A DNA stretch of 44,219 nt from Escherichia phage vB_EcoS-12210III: the sequence record MK907227.1, one strand, 5' to 3'. The translations under genes were made by a program, and so were the position numbers. Of this stretch, positions 1 to 44,219 are shown one piece after another; the first letter of the stretch is position 1, and each line of letters opens with the position of its first letter. The notes under the pieces are model-generated. The model saw only the letters and a list, made by a program, of their open reading frames with translations. It made no database searches and was not told the origin of the DNA.

Positions 1-127
1 CGAAGTGATAGCCAGCGCAAAGCGGTAGATGAGATTCGCGCACAGATTAATAATCAGCAATTCGACGTCAGTGACTTCGAATCATCACGCCAGTACGAGG
101 CGCTTATCGTTAATGCCGCATACCTCA
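1..127. repeat. Terminal exact overlap: positions 1-127 are identical to 44093-44219 (circular or circularly permuted genome, linearised arbitrarily)
   Basis: Direct comparison of the first and last 127 nt of the window; the same open reading frame runs from 44021 across the junction to the stop at 154-156. Confidence 0.9.
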
Positions 128-18316: not shown

Positions 18317-18367
18317 ATTTAGTGTAGAATGGCACAAATGATCAAAACAAACATGAGGCTTTGTGAT

Positions 18368-21300
18368 ATGGCTGAAGATATTAAGATTTATGGTGCTAAA
18401 GGTGGTAGCCAGAAGCAGCATCAACCAGTTGAGCAGGAAGACAACCTTATTTCATTAAACAAGGTTAAGGTGTTGCTTGCGGTTGCTGACGGAGAGGTGG
18501 ATTCAAACTTCTCAATGAAGGATTTATACCTTGCTGACGTTCCGGTACAAAATCAGGATGGTAGTTACAACTATGAAGGTGTTCGCGCTGAGTTCCGTGC
18601 TGGCACGCAGTATCAGGACTATATCGCTGGCCTTGATGGTGCCAACTCAGAAATTCAGGTATCAAGGGAAATCAAAAACGATACCCCGCACATCATTGCG
18701 GTTAACAATAATCAGCTATCAGCGATTCGTGTAAAGCTATATTGGCCCAGACTGGTTAAGCAAGAGAGTAACGGTGACCTGAACGGGACAACCTGCGAGT
18801 ATGCAATTGACCTTTCTGTTAATGGTGGAGCTTACCAGGAATACACTCGAGGAGTTGCTAACGGGAAGACAACAACTGGTTACGACCGCAGCATTCGTGT
18901 AAATCTTCCTGCTGAATTTGATAGCGCATTGGTTCGCATCCGTAAGATCACACCAGACTCAACAAGTAGCACCCTGGTTAACGGAATGCAGATCACAACC
19001 TATCAGGAGGTAATCGACGCTAAATTCCGATATCCGCTTACGGCCCTGGTTTATGTTGAGTTCGGCTCTGACCTTTTCCCTAACGGGATTCCAACAATCT
19101 CAATCAAGAAGAGGTGGAAGCTGATTCAGGTCCCAACTAACTACGACCCTGAAACCAGAACTTACAGCGGGACATGGAACGGTTTGTTCAAGATGGCATG
19201 GTCAAATAACCCAGCGTGGGTTCTTTATGACTTGGTGACAAACCGCCGATATGGTCTTGACCAGCGAGAGCTAGGTGTAGAGATTGATAAATGGGGGCTG
19301 TACGAAGCCGCGCAATTCTGCGACCAGATGGTTCCTGATGGTAAGGGTGGTTTAGAGCCTCGTTATCTTTGCGATATGGTTGTCCAGAATAAAGCTGAGG
19401 CTTACACGCTAATTCGTGATATCTGTTCAATCTTCCGTGGCCTAACCTTCTATGACGGTGAAAAGATTGGCGTCGTGGTTGATAAGCCTCGTAATCCATC
19501 TTACATCTTCACGAATGATAACGTTGTTAATGGATTGTTCAGTCGCACATTTGCCAGCGATAAGAGCCTTTACACTACTGCTAACGTCCAGTTTGATGAT
19601 GTAGAGAACAACTATCAACAAGATGTAGAGCCGGTATTTGAATTAGAGGCAACTCGTCGTTTTGGATTTAACCCTGTAGATTTAACTGCGATTGGCTGTA
19701 CTCGCAGAAGTGAAGCAAACAGACGTGGTAGGTGGCTCCTTAAAACCAATCTGAGAAGCGAAACTATTAGCTTCACTACCGGGTTGGAAGGCATGATTCC
19801 GATGATTGGAGAGGTTATTGCGGTTAATGACGCAGCATGGTCGAGCAACTATCAGTTAAACCTTTCCGGTCGCATTGAGTCAGTTCAGGGATTGCAGGTT
19901 TTTACCCCGTTTAAAGTTGACGCAGCTCCAGGTGACAGAATTCTTCTGAACAAACCCGACGGAAGCCCGGAGGCAAGAACTATTGCAAGCGTATCTGAGG
20001 ATGGTATGACGATTAACCTGAACACGGCTTTCAGCTTTGTAGCTCAGCCTGACACTGTATTCGCAATCGATAAGGATAATCTGGCGCTTCAGCAGTATGT
20101 TGTGACCGGGATTCAAAAAGCGGATTCTGATGGTTCGGATTCATTCCAGTACACGATTACCGCAGTAGAGTATGACCCGAACAAGTATGACGAGATTGAC
20201 TACGGCGTTAACATCGTTGATCGTCCGACTTCAATCGTAGAGCCTGACAGATTGTCGCCGCCTGAGAATTTAACAGTGTCAAGCTACAGTAAGGTTGTTC
20301 AGGGCTTGTCAGTCGAGACGATGGTAATTGGCTGGGACAAGGCTCCATATGCTAAAACCTACAATGTTCAGTGGAGAAAAGAGAATGGCAACTGGATTAA
20401 CGTACCCAGAACAGCTAGCGCAGAGGTTGATATCGAAGGTATTTACGCAGGAATCTATGACGTTAGGGTTCGCAGCGTATCAGATACTGAAAACGTGTCT
20501 GCCTGGTCTGACATTGTAACTGTATCGCTAACTGGTAAGATTGGCCGCCCGTCTGCGCCTACAGTTATCACTGCATCAACTGATGAAGTATTTGGCATCC
20601 GTGTTAAATGGGGATTTCCTGAAGGATCTGGTGATACTGCTTACACTGAACTTCAGCAGGTTCCTGATAATGGTGACGGTACTTATAATCCTGATAACGC
20701 AAGTTTGCTGACTTTACTGCCTTATCCAGCCTATGAATACTGGCACACACCAATTCAGCCAGGAAAGGTTATCTGGTATCGCGCAAGATTGATTGACAGA
20801 ATCGGTAACACATCTGATTGGTCTAATTTCGCAAGAGGCATGAGTACTGACGACGCCAATATTATCAATGATTACATCAAGGTTGATATTGAGGGCTCGG
20901 AAGGATTCAAATACCTCGAGCAGAATGCGATTCAAAAGAATCAGGACATTCAGAACCAGGCAGAATCAATCCTTCAGAACGCATTGGCTAATGACACTGA
21001 TGTTCGTCGTATGACTAAGGAGAACGGCAAACGTAAGGCTGAATATGTTCAGGCTGTTAATCTCATAGCCGATGAAACTCAGGCGCGCGTAGAGGCTCTC
21101 ACACAGCTTAAGGCGCAGATAGATGATGAAGTTGTAGCGTCGATTACTGAAGTTCAGACTGCATTAGCCACAGAGACAGAAGCAAGGACTACAGCAGACA
21201 CGGCTCTATCAGCAAGGCTCGGTGAAAACGAGGCGGCTCTAAACCAGAAATTAGACGCATTCTCTAATGCCACATCAACTGGAGTGCAGTACGGAATTAG

Positions 21301-21739
21301 CCTTGGCCTGAAATACAATGGGCAGACTTATTCATCCGGCATGAGTATGGAGCTTGTTGGCACTGGTGGTAATGTTCGTAGTCAATTCATTTTTGACGCA
21401 AACAGATTCGCAATCAGTAACGGCATTGGTTCTGGTTCCGGTCAGTGGCAACTCCCCTTCGTTGTAGAGAACGGAAACGTAATCATCCAAAGTGCGGTAA
21501 TTGGCGATGGCTCAATTACTAACGCGAAGATTGGTGACTTTATTCAGTCCAGCAACTACGTAGCAGGAAGCACAGGCTGGAGGATTGATAAGTCTGGTAA
21601 CGCTGAGATTCGCGGTAAACTGTACGCCAACAGTGGTGAGTTCGCATTCAACGGAATAAATAATACGGTACAGATTAACGGAAACGGAATCACGGTTAAC
21701 TTACCTGGAGGGGGAAGAGTTGTGGTAGGTACGTTCTAA
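18368..21739 (+). CDS. Central tail fiber / tip attachment protein (lambda J-like host-specificity protein)
   Basis: Clear similarity to lambda J over the N-terminal and central regions as I recall them (e.g. IQVPTNYDPETRTYSGTWNG / DKWGLYEAAQFCDQMVPDGKGG / AIGCTRRSEANRRGRWLLKT); about 1123 aa from ATG 18368 (alternative start ATG 18329). Confidence 0.9.
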   Translation: MAEDIKIYGAKGGSQKQHQPVEQEDNLISLNKVKVLLAVADGEVDSNFSMKDLYLADVPVQNQDGSYNYEGVRAEFRAGTQYQDYIAGLDGANSEIQVSREIKNDTPHIIAVNNNQLSAIRVKLYWPRLVKQESNGDLNGTTCEYAIDLSVNGGAYQEYTRGVANGKTTTGYDRSIRVNLPAEFDSALVRIRKITPDSTSSTLVNGMQITTYQEVIDAKFRYPLTALVYVEFGSDLFPNGIPTISIKKRWKLIQVPTNYDPETRTYSGTWNGLFKMAWSNNPAWVLYDLVTNRRYGLDQRELGVEIDKWGLYEAAQFCDQMVPDGKGGLEPRYLCDMVVQNKAEAYTLIRDICSIFRGLTFYDGEKIGVVVDKPRNPSYIFTNDNVVNGLFSRTFASDKSLYTTANVQFDDVENNYQQDVEPVFELEATRRFGFNPVDLTAIGCTRRSEANRRGRWLLKTNLRSETISFTTGLEGMIPMIGEVIAVNDAAWSSNYQLNLSGRIESVQGLQVFTPFKVDAAPGDRILLNKPDGSPEARTIASVSEDGMTINLNTAFSFVAQPDTVFAIDKDNLALQQYVVTGIQKADSDGSDSFQYTITAVEYDPNKYDEIDYGVNIVDRPTSIVEPDRLSPPENLTVSSYSKVVQGLSVETMVIGWDKAPYAKTYNVQWRKENGNWINVPRTASAEVDIEGIYAGIYDVRVRSVSDTENVSAWSDIVTVSLTGKIGRPSAPTVITASTDEVFGIRVKWGFPEGSGDTAYTELQQVPDNGDGTYNPDNASLLTLLPYPAYEYWHTPIQPGKVIWYRARLIDRIGNTSDWSNFARGMSTDDANIINDYIKVDIEGSEGFKYLEQNAIQKNQDIQNQAESILQNALANDTDVRRMTKENGKRKAEYVQAVNLIADETQARVEALTQLKAQIDDEVVASITEVQTALATETEARTTADTALSARLGENEAALNQKLDAFSNATSTGVQYGISLGLKYNGQTYSSGMSMELVGTGGNVRSQFIFDANRFAISNGIGSGSGQWQLPFVVENGNVIIQSAVIGDGSITNAKIGDFIQSSNYVAGSTGWRIDKSGNAEIRGKLYANSGEFAFNGINNTVQINGNGITVNLPGGGRVVVGTF

Positions 21740-21743
21740 AACA

Positions 21744-21763
21744 AAAGCCCCGAAAGGGGCTTT
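21744..21763. terminator. Bidirectional terminator hairpin (AGCCCC-GAAA-GGGGCT) between convergent genes
   Basis: Perfect hairpin flanked by A-run and T-rich sequence. Confidence 0.6.
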
Positions 21764-21767
21764 ATAT

Positions 21768-22703
21768 TTAATACATATCAGGAAGGTAAGGAAGTGGCAT
21801 TGATATTGTTACGTCAGGCCTATTTCCTATCTCGTATCTGACAATCCTTGAGCCGGTGCCAGATCTAACATACCCATTGCTCATTACGATTCCTTTGTTT
21901 CTCAACTCCTTATATGCTCGTATTGCCCTTGTGTTAAACCCACATCTGAGTATTGGGAAGTAAGATTCGCCAATGTACTGATTGCTACCTGATAGGTTTA
22001 TGAATCCAGAAACAACCAATGGCCTAGTTACGGTCGACAGCGTACAAACACCATTTGAATTAAATATGTTTAATCCAGGACCTGGCGTTGGTGCTACCAT
22101 CTGAAATATAAGAAGGTCCATAGTTACACTTCCTGGAGTGTCACCAGTATCTTCCGTATTTATGTTTGTGCATACCAGCTGGTTACTACCATTGTATTCA
22201 ACTGATACGCCGGAGTTGTTCCACTTTCCAAACGGTATACCATAAATTGGCAGTGTGTATGTGTTGGTGAAAGATATTCTCTGAGCAAACTTGCATACTA
22301 ATAGCCTGTCAGTGGTGGTTATAGAAGTAAAGTCAGTACTGTCAGAAACGTAAATACCCTGGCCTGTAGATGCTCTTAGTACCTCAACAACAGTACCAGA
22401 AAATTGAGTTATACGGTCGGAATATCCATTCTCATAGCCAATCGATATCGTTCCTCTTGATGCAGTTGATGAGAATCCATTTATGTAGTAAATCTCAACA
22501 CCTCTATCAAGTTCGAATGAGTAAGCTCCATTGTTAGGGATAAGGAACCTTGATGCCCCTTCATTTCCCTGGATTGAGAACGTCTTACTAAATCCACCAC
22601 TAGAAACGTTGAAGTTTCCAGCAAAGTTCAAGGCTCGCATGCCTGCGGTAATTGTCATTGGATTCCTTCCATCATTAAGATCTATGTATATACCTTGAGT
22701 CAT
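21768..22703 (-). CDS. Tail-associated protein, candidate receptor-binding protein (about 311 aa)
   Basis: Gly/Ser/Thr/Asn-rich; convergent with the J-like gene and co-transcribed downstream of a small lipoprotein gene; start taken at ATG 22703 (TAATG overlap) rather than GTG 22712. Function inferred from context only. Confidence 0.35.
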   Translation of the reverse strand: MTQGIYIDLNDGRNPMTITAGMRALNFAGNFNVSSGGFSKTFSIQGNEGASRFLIPNNGAYSFELDRGVEIYYINGFSSTASRGTISIGYENGYSDRITQFSGTVVEVLRASTGQGIYVSDSTDFTSITTTDRLLVCKFAQRISFTNTYTLPIYGIPFGKWNNSGVSVEYNGSNQLVCTNINTEDTGDTPGSVTMDLLIFQMVAPTPGPGLNIFNSNGVCTLSTVTRPLVVSGFINLSGSNQYIGESYFPILRCGFNTRAIRAYKELRNKGIVMSNGYVRSGTGSRIVRYEIGNRPDVTISMPLPYLPDMY

Positions 22704-22933
22704 TAATTCCACTCCTTAGAGCCATAATCACGAACGGAGCCACTGGAGCCTTTAATTCCATCGTAGCGAATGTCAATTTCACCAGCCGGAACAACTACGC
22801 CACCTTTCCATTTAGCTACGCACACGCCGTTTGAGGACGTTGCACACCAACCATCAGGACGAGGACCAGAAGAACAACCAACTGCCATGATTACTGCTGC
22901 TGCGATGATTGCTGATTTGATGAAGTTATTCAT
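22703..22933 (-). CDS. Small lipoprotein (76 aa), candidate superinfection-exclusion lipoprotein (Cor/Llp-like role)
   Basis: Signal peptide ending in a lipobox-like AVGC ([22 protein letters not shown]); own promoter unit; start ATG 22933 with RBS AAGGA. Confidence 0.55.
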
Positions 22934-22968
22934 TTTGTATTCCTTGGTAATTTCGTTTCGATGGAGTA

Positions 22969-23012
22969 ATAGTATCGCATCCTTGCGATCAGTGTTTAGC
23001 AATTAGTGCTAT
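22969..23012 (-). promoter_or_regulatory. Conserved phage promoter unit (minus): palindrome at 22996-23012, 22-nt spacer, -10 TACTAT (22969-22974), leader CATCGAAACGA
   Basis: Reverse complement matches the family consensus; overlaps the 3' end of the Rha-like gene. Confidence 0.5.
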
Positions 23013-23656
23013 TTCTTTTCCAGCAGCAGCTTAATGTCAATTCCGAGATTATTCTCAATCAATCCAGTCAGCGCATCATTCTTTTCTTTAAGGGCGAAGC
23101 ATTGGGCTTCATACTTAAATCTTTCCTCCATCTCATCAGAACGACTAGCCCAACACTGGCGAGCCTCACAAGCCAGCATGTCTAGTTTTTCATCGGTACT
23201 CTTATCCATGAGTAAGATCTCATTTATTCTTTGCTCTGCAACAATGCGCTGGCTCAGGTGTGCATTCTGCGCATTAGCCACACCAAGCATCATTCGAACC
23301 TCTTTAAGTTCATTAATGCTTACCATCTGGCTGATTACTTCTGCTTGTTTTTTAACTAACGCCTCAAGCTCATGAAGTCGACGGATAACTCTGTGACGAA
23401 GAATGACGCTGTAGCCAGTTATTAGCGTTTCTGTAAGTTCCTTGTTAAGTAAAATCTCTGATGTATAGCCTAAATTATCTGTAAGTACTTGATAATCCTC
23501 ACTCCTTAAGTATGAGGAGTTGTTATAATGTATCAAATCATTGATCATTTCCTTGGCATCACGAATTACCTTATTATGTTCTTTACCAGTTAACCCCGCG
23601 ATCTCTTTGGTGCTCATCATGGCAACGTTGGTATCTTTAAATGGCTTGATATTCAT
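23009..23656 (-). CDS. Rha-family phage regulatory protein (putative)
   Basis: N-terminal motif STKEIAGLTGKEHNKVIRDAKEMI resembles the Rha signature (GK.H..V.RD); start taken at ATG 23656. Confidence 0.5.
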   Translation of the reverse strand: MNIKPFKDTNVAMMSTKEIAGLTGKEHNKVIRDAKEMINDLIHYNNSSYLRSEDYQVLTDNLGYTSEILLNKELTETLITGYSVILRHRVIRRLHELEALVKKQAEVISQMVSINELKEVRMMLGVANAQNAHLSQRIVAEQRINEILLMDKSTDEKLDMLACEARQCWASRSDEMEERFKYEAQCFALKEKNDALTGLIENNLGIDIKLLLEKK

Positions 23657-23657
23657 T

Positions 23658-23987
23658 TTAACCGCCAAAAATTTTATTAATCAATTTATCAGCATCATCC
23701 TGAGACAGCTTCAATCTCTCTATTGGCTCTGGTTTTTTGCCTGTAACATTCCATCCTGTACATTTTCTTTTTATGTCAATACGCCTTGAGACTGAGTAGT
23801 AAGAGGCAACTTCAACCCTTTCAACAACCCCATAAGATTCAAGTTCAAGCAAGGTCCTCCTTGCGTTAGCCCTTTGGATTCCTGTCAATCTAGATACATC
23901 ATCCGCGGTAGGGCTGTACCTATCGCATCCTTCAGTGCAGTGTAGTATGCAATCAATTACCTTTTTTCTTGTGCTTGTCATTCTCAT
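23658..23987 (-). CDS. Winged-helix DNA-binding transcriptional regulator (putative)
   Basis: 109 aa; HTH-like segment (DVSRLTGIQRANARRTLLELESYGVVERVE); strong RBS GGGAGG; leader contains a palindromic half-site array. Confidence 0.5.
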   Translation of the reverse strand: MRMTSTRKKVIDCILHCTEGCDRYSPTADDVSRLTGIQRANARRTLLELESYGVVERVEVASYYSVSRRIDIKRKCTGWNVTGKKPEPIERLKLSQDDADKLINKIFGG

Positions 23988-24152: not shown

Positions 24153-24196
24153 TTAATAAATGAAATTATCAGAATGTCTTTAGCAATTAGTGCTAT
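24153..24196 (-). promoter_or_regulatory. Conserved phage promoter unit (minus): palindrome 24180-24196, 22-nt spacer, -10 TATTAA (24153-24158)
   Basis: Reverse complement matches the family; drives the winged-helix regulator gene. Confidence 0.5.
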
Positions 24197-24318
24197 TTAT
24201 CGCCAATTTCACCACAAATCACGGTTACACGTAACCGATGTAACTCGATGTATGCAATCTCATCCGCGAAAAATGATATACGCGCTGTTACGCCAATTTA
24301 CGCATTAGTTACATTAAA

Positions 24319-24388
24319 ATATCTATATATATCAACCTTTTACTCTTATTATTATTATTATATATATTACTGTGTATATCATGTAACT
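24319..24388. repeat. AT-rich ~70-bp repeat, copy A (ATATCTATATATATCAACCTTTTACT...(TTA)n...TATATAT...TACTGTGTATA)
   Basis: 26-bp exact match plus microsatellite-containing tail shared with copy B at 41355-41425. Confidence 0.8.
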
Positions 24389-26809: not shown

Positions 26810-27235
26810 ATGCACGTAATTACTGGTCAGATTCGACGCGCCCCATTCACTAAGGAAGGTCAGAATGCTAATGGTAGCTGGAAAATGTTCGCAGTTGATT
26901 TGAGTGAGCGATATAAGGATAAAGATGGGCAGAATCAGTATAGTAACTATCGCGCCGTCTTCTTCGCTAAAGAATCTATGTTAGATTGGTACAATGATGC
27001 ATTTCAAGAAGGTAAAGTTGTTAGTGTTAGCGCTGAAAGTTTGGCTGTAGATGTTAGGGATAAAGATGGTAAGACTTACGTAACCATTAACATGAACAAT
27101 CCGCGACTTGAGTTTAGTCAGCGTGGTGATTCAGCACCGCAGCAACAGCAACATCAACCTCAGCGGCAACAGCAACCTCAGCGGCAACAGCAACCTCAGC
27201 AGCAACAGAACTTCGAGGACGACATCCCATTCTGA
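26810..27235 (+). CDS. ssb: Single-stranded DNA-binding protein
   Basis: 141 aa; C-terminal acidic tail ending DDIPF (SSB C-terminal tip) preceded by a Gln/Pro-rich linker. Confidence 0.8.
   Translation: MHVITGQIRRAPFTKEGQNANGSWKMFAVDLSERYKDKDGQNQYSNYRAVFFAKESMLDWYNDAFQEGKVVSVSAESLAVDVRDKDGKTYVTINMNNPRLEFSQRGDSAPQQQQHQPQRQQQPQRQQQPQQQQNFEDDIPF
27161..27200 (+). repeat. Tandem 18-bp repeat (CAGCGGCAACAGCAACCT x2 plus partial) encoding the SSB Q/P-rich linker
   Basis: Read from sequence. Confidence 0.8.
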
Positions 27236-41067: not shown

Positions 41068-41354
41068 TCGTCAGATTTATGCATTGTTGCAGATATTGCA
41101 ATGATTCACATGATTATTGCACATACAGCAATATTGCTTCTGATGCAATGATGTTTTTGATTGTTGCGAAAAGTGAAATGAAGTGGTGGGTGAGTGAATG
41201 AAAGATGGATTGACTACCATACAAGTTGATTTTCATTCTTGGTGAGCCATTCTTGAGATATACGAGTAACCATCGTATACCAAGTGTCGTCACAAAAGTT
41301 AGTTACCACTAACCTACGTTTTTTACGCGAGATATACGCACGATATACAATATA

Positions 41355-41425
41355 ATATCTATATATATCAACCTTTTACTTTATTATTATTATTATTATT
41401 ATATATATGTATACTGTGTATACCG
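41355..41425. repeat. AT-rich ~70-bp repeat, copy B (with (TTA)6 microsatellite), inside a 540-bp non-coding AT-rich region
   Basis: Matches copy A at 24319-24388. Confidence 0.8.
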
Positions 41426-41699
41426 ATAATTGATTGGATAATTGATATGTTCCGCGCAGATATTCTGACACTTGTCAGAATGGGATGACATTGTAGGAAT
41501 AAAAAGGCGCATATATAGGAAAGCACTCCCAAAAACGGTACACAGGGGATACGGCACGTTTACAACCAGTGCTGACGCTGCCTTGGAGGCCGAAAAAACG
41601 TATCCGCGATGGAATAGACATAAAAATACGTTGACCGACACGTAAACAAGTGGCAAGATGGCAATCACTGAAACGAAGTAAACGAAACGAGGTATCAAC

Positions 41700-44020: not shown

Positions 44021-44219
44021 ATGATTACTATTAACCTGTCAGACAAGCAAGCAGCAGAACTGAAGTCGATGATTAATTCATTCATGCCAACACGAAGTGA
44101 TAGCCAGCGCAAAGCGGTAGATGAGATTCGCGCACAGATTAATAATCAGCAATTCGACGTCAGTGACTTCGAATCATCACGCCAGTACGAGGCGCTTATC
44201 GTTAATGCCGCATACCTCA
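44021..44219 (+). CDS. 5' portion of the hypothetical early protein that continues at 1..156 across the wrap point
   Basis: ATG 44021 with RBS GAGAGGA; reading frame continuous through the 127-bp overlap. Confidence 0.5.
   Translation, partial: MITINLSDKQAAELKSMINSFMPTRSDSQRKAVDEIRAQINNQQFDVSDFESSRQYEALIVNAAYL

What the first reader, a model, noticed from the sequence alone, without database searches (positions are those of the whole stretch)
21768..23012. Early-promoter-driven lipoprotein gene followed by a tail-associated gene, convergent on the J-like fiber gene: candidate receptor-blocking lipoprotein plus receptor-binding protein pair
A 76-aa lipoprotein (signal peptide and AVGC lipobox) has its own conserved promoter unit and is followed, with a 1-nt overlap, by an approximately 311-aa Gly/Ser/Thr/Asn-rich protein that ends 29 bp from the J-like gene. 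Established knowledge: in T5-like phages the Llp lipoprotein gene sits beside the receptor-binding protein gene and blocks the receptor (FhuA), and Cor of phi80/N15/T1-type phages is a small outer-membrane lipoprotein with the same role. By analogy the lipoprotein here may be a superinfection-exclusion factor and the downstream protein the distal receptor-binding protein. This is inference from architecture; I did not recognise sequence similarity to Llp, Cor or pb5.
Basis: partly seen in the sequence, partly recalled or inferred. Interest (0 to 1): 0.6.

Follow-up and report, generated by a model that had tools for sequence, protein, structure and literature searches.

The report
LptD-type receptor-binding and exclusion gene pair

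Summary
On the minus strand, a 76-aa lipoprotein gene (22933-22703) overlaps by one base (TAATG) a 311-aa gene (22703-21768). That gene ends 28 nt from the convergent J-like gene, across a shared terminator hairpin.

The window is a complete Rtp-like Drexlerviridae genome (Veterinaerplatzvirus). The lipoprotein is the ortholog of Rtp45: 84% identity, PDB 9RPS chain D at E 1e-41, with the lipobox cysteine and the Cys30/Cys38 pair conserved. Cryo-EM showed that Rtp45 binds the periplasmic face of LptDE and prevents RBP binding.

The 311-aa protein is a DUF6453 receptor-binding protein. It is 86% identical to the TheodorHerzl protein and 80% to the AugustePiccard protein, both from genetically LptD-dependent phages. 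It is 35% identical to the Oekolampad RBP solved on LptDE, which is the only significant PDB fold match to my model (E 2e-17).

The exchangeable cassette comprises the last ~44 codons of J, the terminator, the RBP and the lipoprotein.

However, the likely receptor is LptD rather than FhuA, the proteins are not relatives of Llp, Cor or pb5, and "early" timing is untested. This is a new member of a known kind and of low interest.

The parts
22951..23015 (-). Promoter-like unit upstream of the lipoprotein gene. It comprises an imperfect palindrome AAATAGCACTAATTGCTAAA (23015-22995), a spacer containing the inverted repeat ATCGCA/TGCGAT, a -10-like TACTAT (22974-22969), and a conserved CATCGAAACGAAA (22963-22951).
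   Evidence: One of 15 copies in the window against 0.19 expected by chance; the copies are shown in register. It is conserved upstream of rtp45 and bas01_0029. The sigma-70 scan does not call it because the spacing is 22 nt.
22703..22933 (-). Superinfection-exclusion lipoprotein gene, the Rtp45 ortholog (76 aa). The signal peptide is aa 1-19, the lipobox is AVGC with Cys20 (codon 22876-22874), Ser is at +2, and Cys30 and Cys38 are conserved.
   Evidence: PF24052 at E 1.4e-35. PDB 9RPS chain D at E 1.1e-41 over residues 1-76. 84% identity to Rtp45. The family alignment has invariant G19, C20, C30, C38, P49, G51, D54, R56 and W75.
22712..22717 (-). AAGGAG ribosome-binding site for the RBP gene, lying inside the 3' end of the lipoprotein gene. 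Together with the TAATG stop/start overlap at 22705-22701, it suggests translational coupling.
   Evidence: Read directly from the sequence. The junction is identical in Rtp and AugustePiccard, and the same one-base overlap occurs in an E. coli prophage.
21768..22703 (-). Receptor-binding protein gene (311 aa, DUF6453; ortholog of Rtp44, bas01_0028 and the TheodorHerzl gp25 gene), predicted to bind LptD.
   Evidence: PF20051 at E 2.6e-118. PDB 9RPT chain C at E 9.7e-39, full length. The AF2 model (pLDDT 85.4, pTM 0.86) matches 9rpt_C at E 2.1e-17 with target-normalised TM 0.88, and that is the only hit below E 1e-3. Identity is 79% to Rtp44, 80% to Bas01 and 86% to TheodorHerzl. No transmembrane segment is present: the maximum Kyte-Doolittle 19-residue mean is 1.28.
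21744..21763 (.). Bidirectional intrinsic terminator hairpin (AAAGCCCCGAAAGGGGCTTT) shared by the convergent J and RBP genes.
   Evidence: Called on both strands by the terminator scan. It is conserved in Rtp and AugustePiccard.
21606..21739 (+). The 3' end of the J-like gene, encoding about the last 44 residues (IRGKLYANSGEFAFNG...GGGRVVVGTF). This is the probable docking tip for the RBP and part of the exchangeable cassette.
   Evidence: Nucleotide similarity to Dhillonvirus TheodorHerzl is 70-86% from 22940 down to 21606 and at or below about 50% outside that span. The J tips are nearly identical while the rest of J is about 38% identical. The window's tip resembles Oekolampad (62%) more than T1 (28%), although J overall is closer to T1 (61% against 37%).
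18329..21739 (+). J-like central tail fibre / tail tip gene (1136 aa), 97% identical to Rtp43.
   Evidence: Pfam FNIII-A_GpJ, Phage-tail_3 and Phage_Tail_Tip; PHROG 31 'central tail fiber J'.

Best explanation
This is the host-recognition and self-exclusion cassette of an Rtp-like T1-family siphophage, of the allele class that targets the LPS translocon LptDE.

The two genes form a small operon on the minus strand. It has its own promoter-like unit, coupled translation through a TAATG overlap, and a terminator shared with the J gene.

Proposed mechanism:
- The 311-aa DUF6453 protein is a two-beta-sandwich receptor-binding protein. It is carried non-covalently on the C-terminal tip of the J-like central fibre. 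Its distal loops insert into the extracellular mouth of LptD, giving irreversible adsorption.
- The 76-aa product is exported, lipidated at Cys20 and sorted to the inner leaflet of the outer membrane (Ser at +2).
- There it binds the periplasmic side of LptDE and pushes a hairpin up through the barrel lumen, displacing extracellular loop 4. RBPs of this phage and of other LptD-targeting phages then can no longer bind. This protects the infected cell from superinfection and keeps progeny from being wasted on cell debris.

Shown here: gene structure, family membership, near-orthology to characterised proteins, the fold match, cassette boundaries and purifying selection.

Inferred from homologs: LptD as the receptor, virion location, docking on the J tip and the exclusion mechanism.
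For: Identity of the phage: the window equals the 44,219-bp vB_EcoS-12210I group (Braunvirinae, Veterinaerplatzvirus).

Lipoprotein: PF24052 at E 1.4e-35. PDB 9RPS_D (Rtp45 in the LptDE complex) at E 1.1e-41 over its full length, 84% identity, with Cys20, Cys30 and Cys38 conserved. The published structure and mechanism are described.

RBP: DUF6453 at E 2.6e-118. PDB 9RPT_C (Oekolampad RBP on open LptDE) at E 9.7e-39. The AF2 model has pLDDT 85, and its only significant PDB fold match is 9rpt_C (E 2e-17, TM 0.88). It is 86% identical to the TheodorHerzl protein and 80% to the AugustePiccard protein. Spontaneous resistance to both phages maps to lptD (PMC8594841).

Architecture: J, RBP and lipoprotein are arranged identically in Rtp, Bas01, Bas14, Bas18 and an E. 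coli prophage.

Cassette: the J C-terminal tip travels with the RBP across genera.

Selection: dN/dS is 0.03-0.16, so both genes are under purifying selection. RBP dS is 1.9 against 0.55 for J, which indicates replacement by recombination.
Against: No experiment exists for this particular allele. The RBP differs at about 14-21% of residues from the LptD-validated relatives, and loop residues decide specificity.

The structural evidence for RBP-LptD binding comes from a homolog that is only 35% identical.

Virion incorporation of DUF6453 proteins, and their contact with the J tip, are inferred rather than observed in anything I could read.

The promoter-like unit has non-canonical spacing, and its timing and regulator are unknown.

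Public annotations call the 311-aa protein a 'membrane protein' (PHROG 1265, RefSeq), although no transmembrane segment supports that label.
Confidence: 0.88

Rival explanations
1. The architecture and roles are the same, but this diverged allele binds a different outer-membrane protein from LptD, or needs a second receptor as AugustePiccard needs NupG. The lipoprotein would then block that other receptor.
For: The RBP is only 79-86% identical to the validated LptD binders, with 60 positions differing from both Rtp44 and Bas01 spread along the sequence. A preprint reports that Bas01 needs both NupG and LptD, attributing NupG use to a J segment.
Against: That preprint finds that each RBP family at this locus (defined by more than 30% identity) maps to a single receptor, and LptD binders as distant as 33-39% identity share the receptor. 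The mature lipoprotein differs from Rtp45 at only 6 of 57 positions. The window's J lacks Bas01's 33-residue insertion and divergent segment, and is 97% identical to Rtp's J.
Confidence: 0.07
2. The lipoprotein's main biological role is not to exclude incoming phages. Instead it inactivates receptors on the lysing cell and its debris so that progeny are not lost ('lytic conversion', as argued for T5 Llp). The molecular mechanism is the same; only the selective benefit differs.
For: The phage appears virulent: a T1-like genome, with no integrase noted while scanning ORFs (not searched for specifically). The BASEL follow-up states that Cor and Llp disable receptors to prevent adsorption of offspring to debris, and the LptDE paper names both benefits.
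Against: The two roles are not mutually exclusive. The same gene pair also occurs in an E. coli chromosomal prophage, where true superinfection exclusion would matter.
Confidence: 0.4
3. The pair is a Cor/Llp-type FhuA-blocking lipoprotein with a pb5-like or T1-like FhuA-binding protein. This is the literal analogy the first reader drew.
For: The general layout is the same, a small lipoprotein next to the RBP near J. BLASTP against T1 Cor gives E 0.001, and one GenBank record labels the neighbouring lipoprotein 'Cor superinfection exclusion protein' (H50).
Against: The Cor match covers only the signal peptide and lipobox. T1 Cor scores 17.7 bits on PF24052, below the 27-bit cut-off. T1's locus has different genes downstream of J, on the same strand as J. 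Neither protein matches any other PDB chain at E<=1, and pb5 and Llp were solved with FhuA according to PMC9586334. From my own recollection of Wietzorrek et al. 2006, which I could not open, phage Rtp does not need FhuA.
Confidence: 0.01
4. The 311-aa protein is a host-membrane 'moron' or host-takeover protein, as database labels say, and not a virion component.
For: PHROG 1265 is categorised 'moron, auxiliary metabolic gene and host takeover: membrane protein', and RefSeq names it 'membrane protein'. It is transcribed together with a non-structural lipoprotein from a unit that otherwise mostly precedes non-structural genes.
Against: It has no signal peptide or hydrophobic segment. It is an all-beta protein whose only structural relative is an RBP solved bound to its receptor. 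The purified Oekolampad homolog binds LptDE in vitro, and receptor specificity tracks this gene across genera.
Confidence: 0.02

Closest known systems
Rtp44/Rtp45 of phage Rtp and the equivalent pairs of BASEL phages AugustePiccard (Bas01) and TheodorHerzl (Bas14): the LptD-type 'bona fide RBP locus' downstream of gpJ (PMC8594841; bioRxiv 10.1101/2025.07.07.663478)
   Same: The gene order and orientation are the same, as are the TAATG overlap, the terminator and the protein lengths (311 and 76 aa). RBP identity is 79-86% and lipoprotein identity 82-88%. The J C-terminal tip is the same.
   Different: This is a distinct allele: RBP dS against Rtp is about 1.9, compared with 0.55 for J. In this genome a 1.1-kb insert carrying a Rha-like gene and an HTH gene sits just upstream of the lipoprotein promoter unit. 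No experimental data exist for this allele.
Oekolampad (Bas18) RBP and its exclusion lipoprotein; PDB 9RPT (RBP on open LptDE)
   Same: Same Pfam families (DUF6453, PF24052), same fold (Foldseek E 2e-17), same locus architecture, and the LptD-type J tip.
   Different: Identity is only about 35%. The Oekolampad RBP is 321 aa with loop insertions. The two genes are separated by 2 nt instead of overlapping. The promoter is lineage-specific (a Dhillonvirus type with TTGCAA, 17 nt, then TAATAC).
T5 pb5 (Oad) and Llp; T1/phi80/N15 Cor
   Same: The functional logic is the same. A dedicated RBP hangs on the central fibre, and a small periplasm-facing outer-membrane lipoprotein encoded next to it disables the same receptor from inside.
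   Different: There is no detectable homology. The receptor in those systems is FhuA, a TonB-dependent transporter. Llp acts by long-range allostery, whereas Rtp45 physically displaces an LptD loop. In T1 the genes downstream of J are different and co-directional with J.

Membership tests
LptD-type siphophage RBP (Pfam DUF6453 / PF20051; Rtp44, RBP_Oeko) | Full-length match to the DUF6453 profile above the gathering score | tested here: met
   395 bits against a cut-off of 25, covering residues 4-291 of 311.
LptD-type siphophage RBP (Pfam DUF6453 / PF20051; Rtp44, RBP_Oeko) | Sequence and fold homology to the RBP solved in complex with LptDE (PDB 9RPT chain C) | tested here: met
   phmmer E 9.7e-39 over residues 2-311. 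Foldseek of the AF2 model gives E 2.1e-17, probability 1.00 and TM 0.73/0.88, the only hit below 1e-3.
LptD-type siphophage RBP (Pfam DUF6453 / PF20051; Rtp44, RBP_Oeko) | Encoded immediately downstream of, and convergent with, the gpJ homolog, with a cognate lipoprotein gene just upstream | tested here: met
   The layout is identical in Rtp, Bas01, Bas14, Bas18 and an E. coli prophage.
LptD-type siphophage RBP (Pfam DUF6453 / PF20051; Rtp44, RBP_Oeko) | J protein carries the matching C-terminal tip that co-occurs with this RBP class | tested here: met
   The last ~44 residues are nearly identical to TheodorHerzl and 62% identical to Oekolampad, but 28% identical to FhuA-type T1. Only a few lineages were compared.
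LptD-type siphophage RBP (Pfam DUF6453 / PF20051; Rtp44, RBP_Oeko) | Infection depends on LptD, and the purified protein binds LptDE | not testable with these tools
   Shown for relatives only: Bas01, Bas14 and Bas18 by genetics and Bas18 by cryo-EM.
LptD-type siphophage RBP (Pfam DUF6453 / PF20051; Rtp44, RBP_Oeko) | Present in the virion at the tail tip | not testable with these tools
   No proteomic or structural data for this phage were accessible.
Rtp45-type superinfection-exclusion lipoprotein (Pfam PF24052 Phage_lipoprotein) | Profile match above the gathering score and near-identity to Rtp45 | tested here: met
   121.6 bits against a cut-off of 27. PDB 9RPS_D at E 1.1e-41. 84% identity overall, with 51 of 57 mature residues identical.
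Rtp45-type superinfection-exclusion lipoprotein (Pfam PF24052 Phage_lipoprotein) | Signal peptide with a lipobox cysteine, and no inner-membrane retention signal at +2 | tested here: met
   The sequence reads ...IMAVG-C20-SSGP. Ser at +2 implies sorting to the outer membrane; this inference rests on the established Lol-avoidance (Asp+2) rule.
Rtp45-type superinfection-exclusion lipoprotein (Pfam PF24052 Phage_lipoprotein) | The Cys30-Cys38 disulphide pair and the conserved VPAGE-D-RY hairpin motif | tested here: met
   These residues are conserved in the window, Rtp, Bas01, Oekolampad and SU10 proteins. The disulphide and hairpin are described.
Rtp45-type superinfection-exclusion lipoprotein (Pfam PF24052 Phage_lipoprotein) | Binds LptDE and confers resistance to the cognate phage | not testable with these tools
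   The LptDE-Rtp45 complex was solved for the Rtp protein only.
Cor family (T1, phi80, N15) | Sequence similarity of the mature protein to Cor | tested here: not met
   The BLASTP alignment to T1 Cor covers only the signal peptide and lipobox (E 0.001). T1 Cor scores below the cut-off on PF24052 (17.7 bits against 27).
Cor family (T1, phi80, N15) | Partnered with a FhuA-type host-recognition locus | tested here: not met
   T1 encodes two unrelated genes downstream of J, on the same strand as J, with no Pfam match. The window instead has a DUF6453 gene on the opposite strand.
T5 Llp / pb5 | Sequence or fold similarity to Llp or pb5 (both solved with FhuA, PMC9586334) | tested here: not met
   PDB sequence searches at E<=1 return only 9RPS_D and 9RPT_C, plus one spurious enzyme hit. 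Apart from 9rpt_C, no chain in the PDB fold search reached E 0.001, and no pb5 entry appears among the 50 matches listed.

The most novel reading that the evidence does not exclude
The roughly 15-20% divergence of this RBP and lipoprotein from the Rtp/Bas01 alleles could mark a separate recognition-and-exclusion group on LptD. For example, the RBP might tolerate Rtp45-type loop displacement or recognise variant LptD loops of non-K-12 hosts, and the lipoprotein might be tuned to exclude it. LptD-targeting phages would then form several mutually non-excluding groups. A related possibility comes from stand-alone Rtp45-like lipoproteins in Kuravirus podophages: LptD blocking may be used across phage morphotypes, either for cross-exclusion or because LptD is an unrecognised terminal receptor of those podophages.
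Probability: 0.12. Interest if true: 0.5.

Novelty: new member of a known kind. Interest (0 to 1): 0.15.

Why it matters
The practical value is in annotation and prediction. In the public records for this phage group these genes are labelled 'hypothetical protein' or 'membrane protein'. The evidence here allows them to be renamed as an LptD-type receptor-binding protein and an Rtp45-like exclusion lipoprotein.

It also predicts that this Veterinaerplatzvirus uses the essential LPS translocon as its terminal receptor. That is relevant to phage-therapy cocktail design, to designing laboratory strains resistant to Rtp-like contaminant phages through lptD loop deletions, and to RBP swapping.

The cassette boundaries measured here (J tip, terminator, RBP, lipoprotein) give a concrete unit for engineering receptor swaps between genera.

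None of this opens a new question. It confirms a published model with one more allele.

Tried and rejected
(1) Canonical sigma-70 promoter upstream of the lipoprotein gene. The scan finds none on the minus strand at 22934-23012. The repeated unit places TTGCTA 22 nt from the -10-like hexamer, so I do not call it a standard promoter, nor an 'early' one.

(2) Adaptive (positive) selection as the cause of the RBP's extra divergence from Rtp. This is rejected: dN/dS is 0.07-0.09 and dS is saturated at about 1.9, against 0.55 in J. That points to allele replacement by recombination.

(3) 'Membrane protein' annotation of the 311-aa product. This is rejected because no hydrophobic segment is present and the fold is an all-beta RBP.

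(4) Cor, Llp or pb5 membership. This is rejected.

(5) NupG co-receptor use, as in Bas01. The window's J lacks Bas01's 33-aa insertion and divergent segment, so this is not predicted. I could not see the preprint's figure to map the exact NupG-specific residues.

(6) NCBIfam gave no family for either protein.

(7) The original Rtp genome paper (PMC1367250) is not held. What I say about it rests on my own recollection and on its citation in other papers.

(8) A literature search for transcript timing in Drexlerviridae returned nothing useful.
Full report
WHAT THE WINDOW IS. The 44,219-base window is a complete phage genome. It is 100% identical across the finding to about 40 deposited isolates of the Escherichia phage vB_EcoS-12210I group, which belong to Drexlerviridae, Braunvirinae, genus Veterinaerplatzvirus. 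These are T1-like siphoviruses closely related to phage Rtp. In the public records the two genes are annotated 'hypothetical protein' or 'membrane protein'.

CHECKING THE OBSERVATION.
- The lipoprotein gene runs from the ATG at 22933 to the TAA at 22705-22703. It encodes 76 residues, [24 protein letters not shown]..., with a hydrophobic signal peptide, an AVGC lipobox (Cys20) and Ser at +2.
- Its stop overlaps the next start by one base (TAATG, sharing base 22703). An AAGGAG ribosome-binding site sits at 22717-22712.
- The second gene (22703-21768) encodes 311 residues, of which 38.9% are Gly, Ser, Thr or Asn.
The gap holds a hairpin that the scan calls as a terminator on both strands (21744-21763).
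- The 'conserved promoter unit' is real. ATAGCACNAATTGCTAAA occurs 15 times against 0.19 expected by chance, with a perfect copy at 23012-22995. In register, the copies share a palindrome-like upstream element, a spacer of about 22 nt, a TATAGT/TATAAT/TACTAT hexamer, a CATCGAAACGA block, a ribosome-binding site and an ATG. The same unit precedes the orthologous genes in Rtp and AugustePiccard.
- Two reservations apply. The spacing is not the 17 nt of a sigma-70 promoter, so the consensus scan does not call it. And the unit also precedes the operon that contains the lateral tail fibre gene (30705 minus strand). 'Early' is therefore unproven.

WHAT THE TWO PROTEINS ARE.

The lipoprotein matches Pfam PF24052 (Phage_lipoprotein) at E 1.4e-35. 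Its only real PDB match is chain D of 9RPS, 'Phage lipoprotein', at E 1.1e-41 over all 76 residues. That chain is Rtp45 of phage Rtp. Identity is 84% overall, and 51 of 57 mature residues are identical. The lipobox cysteine and Cys30/Cys38 are conserved, as is the VPAGE-D-RY motif across the family.

The 311-aa protein matches Pfam DUF6453 over its full length at E 2.6e-118. Its identities to proteins at the same locus are:
- 79% to Rtp44;
- 80% to AugustePiccard/Bas01;
- 86% to TheodorHerzl/Bas14;
- about 35% to the Oekolampad/Bas18 RBP. This is the single PDB sequence hit, 9RPT chain C, at E 9.7e-39 over its full length.

I built a 23-sequence alignment of database homologs and predicted the structure. 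The model has mean pLDDT 85.4 and pTM 0.86 and is all-beta. Foldseek against the PDB returns exactly one match below E 1e-3, namely 9rpt_C, 'open state of Shigella flexneri LptDE bound by the RBP of Oekolampad phage', at E 2.1e-17 with target-normalised TM 0.88. The protein has no hydrophobic segment (maximum 19-residue Kyte-Doolittle mean 1.28). The 'membrane protein' label carried by PHROG 1265 and RefSeq is therefore not supported.

WHAT IS KNOWN ABOUT THESE FAMILIES.
- Maffei et al. 2021 (PMC8594841) showed that small siphoviruses carry 'bona fide RBP loci' directly downstream of gpJ homologs, together with cognate exclusion proteins. One allele class is shared by seven phages, including Bas01, Bas14 and Bas18. 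It is linked to LptD through spontaneous resistance mutations in lptD. They predicted that Rtp (rtp44/rtp45) uses LptD.
- Dunbar et al. (bioRxiv 10.1101/2025.07.07.663478) solved LptDE with the Oekolampad RBP, which inserts deeply into an open LptD barrel. They also solved LptDE with Rtp45. Rtp45 sits on the periplasmic side between LptE and LptM and sends a hairpin up the lumen. It displaces extracellular loop 4 by up to 20 angstroms, which is incompatible with RBP binding.
- Black et al. 2025 (PMC13035648) showed that an RBP only 39% identical to Rtp44 still confers LptD dependence.
- A 2026 preprint (10.64898/2026.04.02.716166) confirms that each RBP family at this locus, defined at more than 30% identity, maps to one receptor.

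The window's pair is therefore a near-ortholog of characterised proteins. Its closest genetically validated relative is at 86% identity.

HOW IT MOST LIKELY WORKS. The steps below are inferred from homologs unless stated otherwise.
- The operon is transcribed from its own promoter-like unit and terminated at the hairpin shared with J. The RBP is probably translationally coupled to the lipoprotein. The gene structure is shown here; the expression behaviour is inferred.
- The RBP docks through its conserved 'base' onto the C-terminal tip of the J fibre. The invariant residues M1, G4, D11, G12, M16, I18, T19, G21 and the C-terminal Y311 agree with the published mapping of conserved residues to the base.
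- The RBP then binds LptD through its distal loops.
- The lipoprotein is lipidated at Cys20, sorted to the outer membrane, and blocks LptD from the periplasmic side.

Against Rtp, the J gene is about 90% identical in DNA and 97% in protein. The RBP gene falls to 67-80% in DNA and the lipoprotein gene to 82-84%. Nei-Gojobori estimates are as follows:

| Gene | dS | dN/dS |
|---|---|---|
| J | 0.55 | 0.03 |
| RBP | 1.9 | 0.085 |
| Lipoprotein | 0.64 | 0.16 |

This pattern indicates purifying selection with an older, recombined RBP allele. It does not indicate accelerated adaptive change.

Against TheodorHerzl, which belongs to a different genus, nucleotide similarity is 70-86% from 22940 down to 21606. 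Outside that span it is at background, about 50% or less. The shared segment is the lipoprotein gene, the RBP gene, the terminator and the last ~44 codons of J. The promoters are lineage-specific.

At protein level, the J tips of the window and TheodorHerzl are nearly identical while the rest of J is about 38% identical. The window's tip is 62% identical to Oekolampad's but only 28% to that of FhuA-dependent T1, even though J overall is closer to T1 (61% against 37%). This fits the J tip being the adaptor for this RBP class, as the 2026 preprint also suggests. My comparison covers only a few lineages.

The same lipoprotein-RBP-J layout, again with the one-base overlap, occurs in an E. coli chromosomal prophage.

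The functional analogy with T5 (pb5 and Llp) and T1/phi80 (Cor) holds, but membership does not.
- Neither window protein finds pb5 or Llp in the PDB at E<=1.
- The BLASTP match to T1 Cor covers only the signal peptide and lipobox.
- T1 Cor scores below threshold on PF24052.
- T1's locus downstream of J is organised differently.
- The mechanism also differs: Llp acts allosterically on a TonB-dependent transporter, whereas Rtp45 displaces a loop physically.

RESIDUAL UNCERTAINTY. No experiment exists for this allele. A receptor other than LptD, or an additional receptor, cannot be formally excluded. Bas01 reportedly also needs NupG through a J segment, but the window's J lacks Bas01's 33-residue insertion and divergent region and matches Rtp's J. 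Virion location and J-tip docking are inferences. The nature and timing of the promoter-like unit are unknown.

VERDICT. This is a further allele of the published LptD-type RBP and exclusion cassette, hence 'new member of a known kind' and of low interest (0.15). The most novel reading still open is that the diverged pair defines a separate recognition-and-exclusion group on LptD, or that Rtp45-like lipoproteins in unrelated podophages point to wider use of LptD. I give this reading about 12% probability.

Noticed in passing
window, 15 sites: 297+, 1129+, 11780+, 22995-, 24179-, 26044+, 29662+, 30705-, 33710+, 37664-, 37822-, 40404-, 41050-, 42990+, 43496+: A repeated promoter-like unit. It consists of an imperfect palindrome AAATAGCAC-N-AATTGCTAAA (TAGCA-N5-TGCTA), a spacer of about 22 nt that often contains a short inverted repeat, a TATAGT/TATAAT-like hexamer, CATCGAAACGA, a ribosome-binding site and an ATG. 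There are 15 copies against 0.19 expected by chance. The palindrome would be centred near -42, a position typical of class II activators, and the spacing does not fit sigma-70. Almost all copies lie outside the head and tail module. The regulator and the timing are unknown.
   Followed up: partly
L005 3926-4207 (Kuravirus SU10, SU10_0104); also ES17, EP335, Bas88 and Bas89: Rtp45-like lipoproteins (PF24052 at E 2.6e-36 for SU10; 50-55% identity to the window's mature protein) are encoded among small early-type ORFs of ~76-kb Gordonclarkvirinae podoviruses. For these phages the one paper consulted (PMC11990801) reports dependence on O-antigen and names no protein receptor. They may block LptD to exclude siphophages, or LptD may play a part in their own entry. 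I did not check whether these genomes also carry a DUF6453 gene.
   Followed up: partly
window 23009-23987 (minus strand): Relative to Rtp, the window has a ~1.1-kb insertion between the AT-rich divergent control region and the lipoprotein promoter unit. It carries a 219-aa Rha/anti-repressor-like gene (PF09669; PHROG 8235) and a 109-aa winged-helix-like gene, preceded by their own copy of the promoter unit at 24179. These are candidate regulators in an otherwise virulent-looking genome.
   Followed up: partly
window 1-127 and 44093-44219: An exact 127-bp direct repeat at the two ends of the window (family D2). It is most simply an assembly overlap of a circularly permuted or terminally redundant genome.
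   Followed up: no
window 24296-24385 and 41332-41429: Two copies of an AT-rich element, with TTATTATTATTATTATATATA... and ATATCTATATATATCAACCTTTTACT (families D11 and D15). The copy at 24.3 kb is conserved in Rtp upstream of rtp45. It may be a divergent control region or an origin-like sequence.
   Followed up: no
L003 6195-9704 (AugustePiccard J) compared with window 18329-21739: AugustePiccard's J protein is 1169 aa and carries a 33-residue insertion plus a divergent stretch (alignment columns ~750-1000, down to 39% identity) that the window and Rtp lack. This region coincides with the part of J that a 2026 preprint links to NupG dependence, so the window phage is not predicted to need NupG.
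   Followed up: partly
L007 5783-10669 (E. coli GCA_015730745.1 contig JADIHZ010000006.1): A chromosomal prophage next to the abg genes carries the same lipoprotein (PF24052), one-base overlap, DUF6453 RBP (63% identical) and convergent J arrangement. The cassette therefore also circulates in integrated (presumably temperate) phages of E. coli. Homologs in Salmonella, Enterobacter and Cronobacter genomes appear.
   Followed up: partly
window 27143-27208: Tandem 18-nt repeats (CAGCGGCAACAGCAACCT) encode a Gln/Pro-rich C-terminal tail in the 141-aa ORF at 26810-27235. By position this ORF corresponds to the SSB gene annotated in Rtp and Bas01.
   Followed up: no
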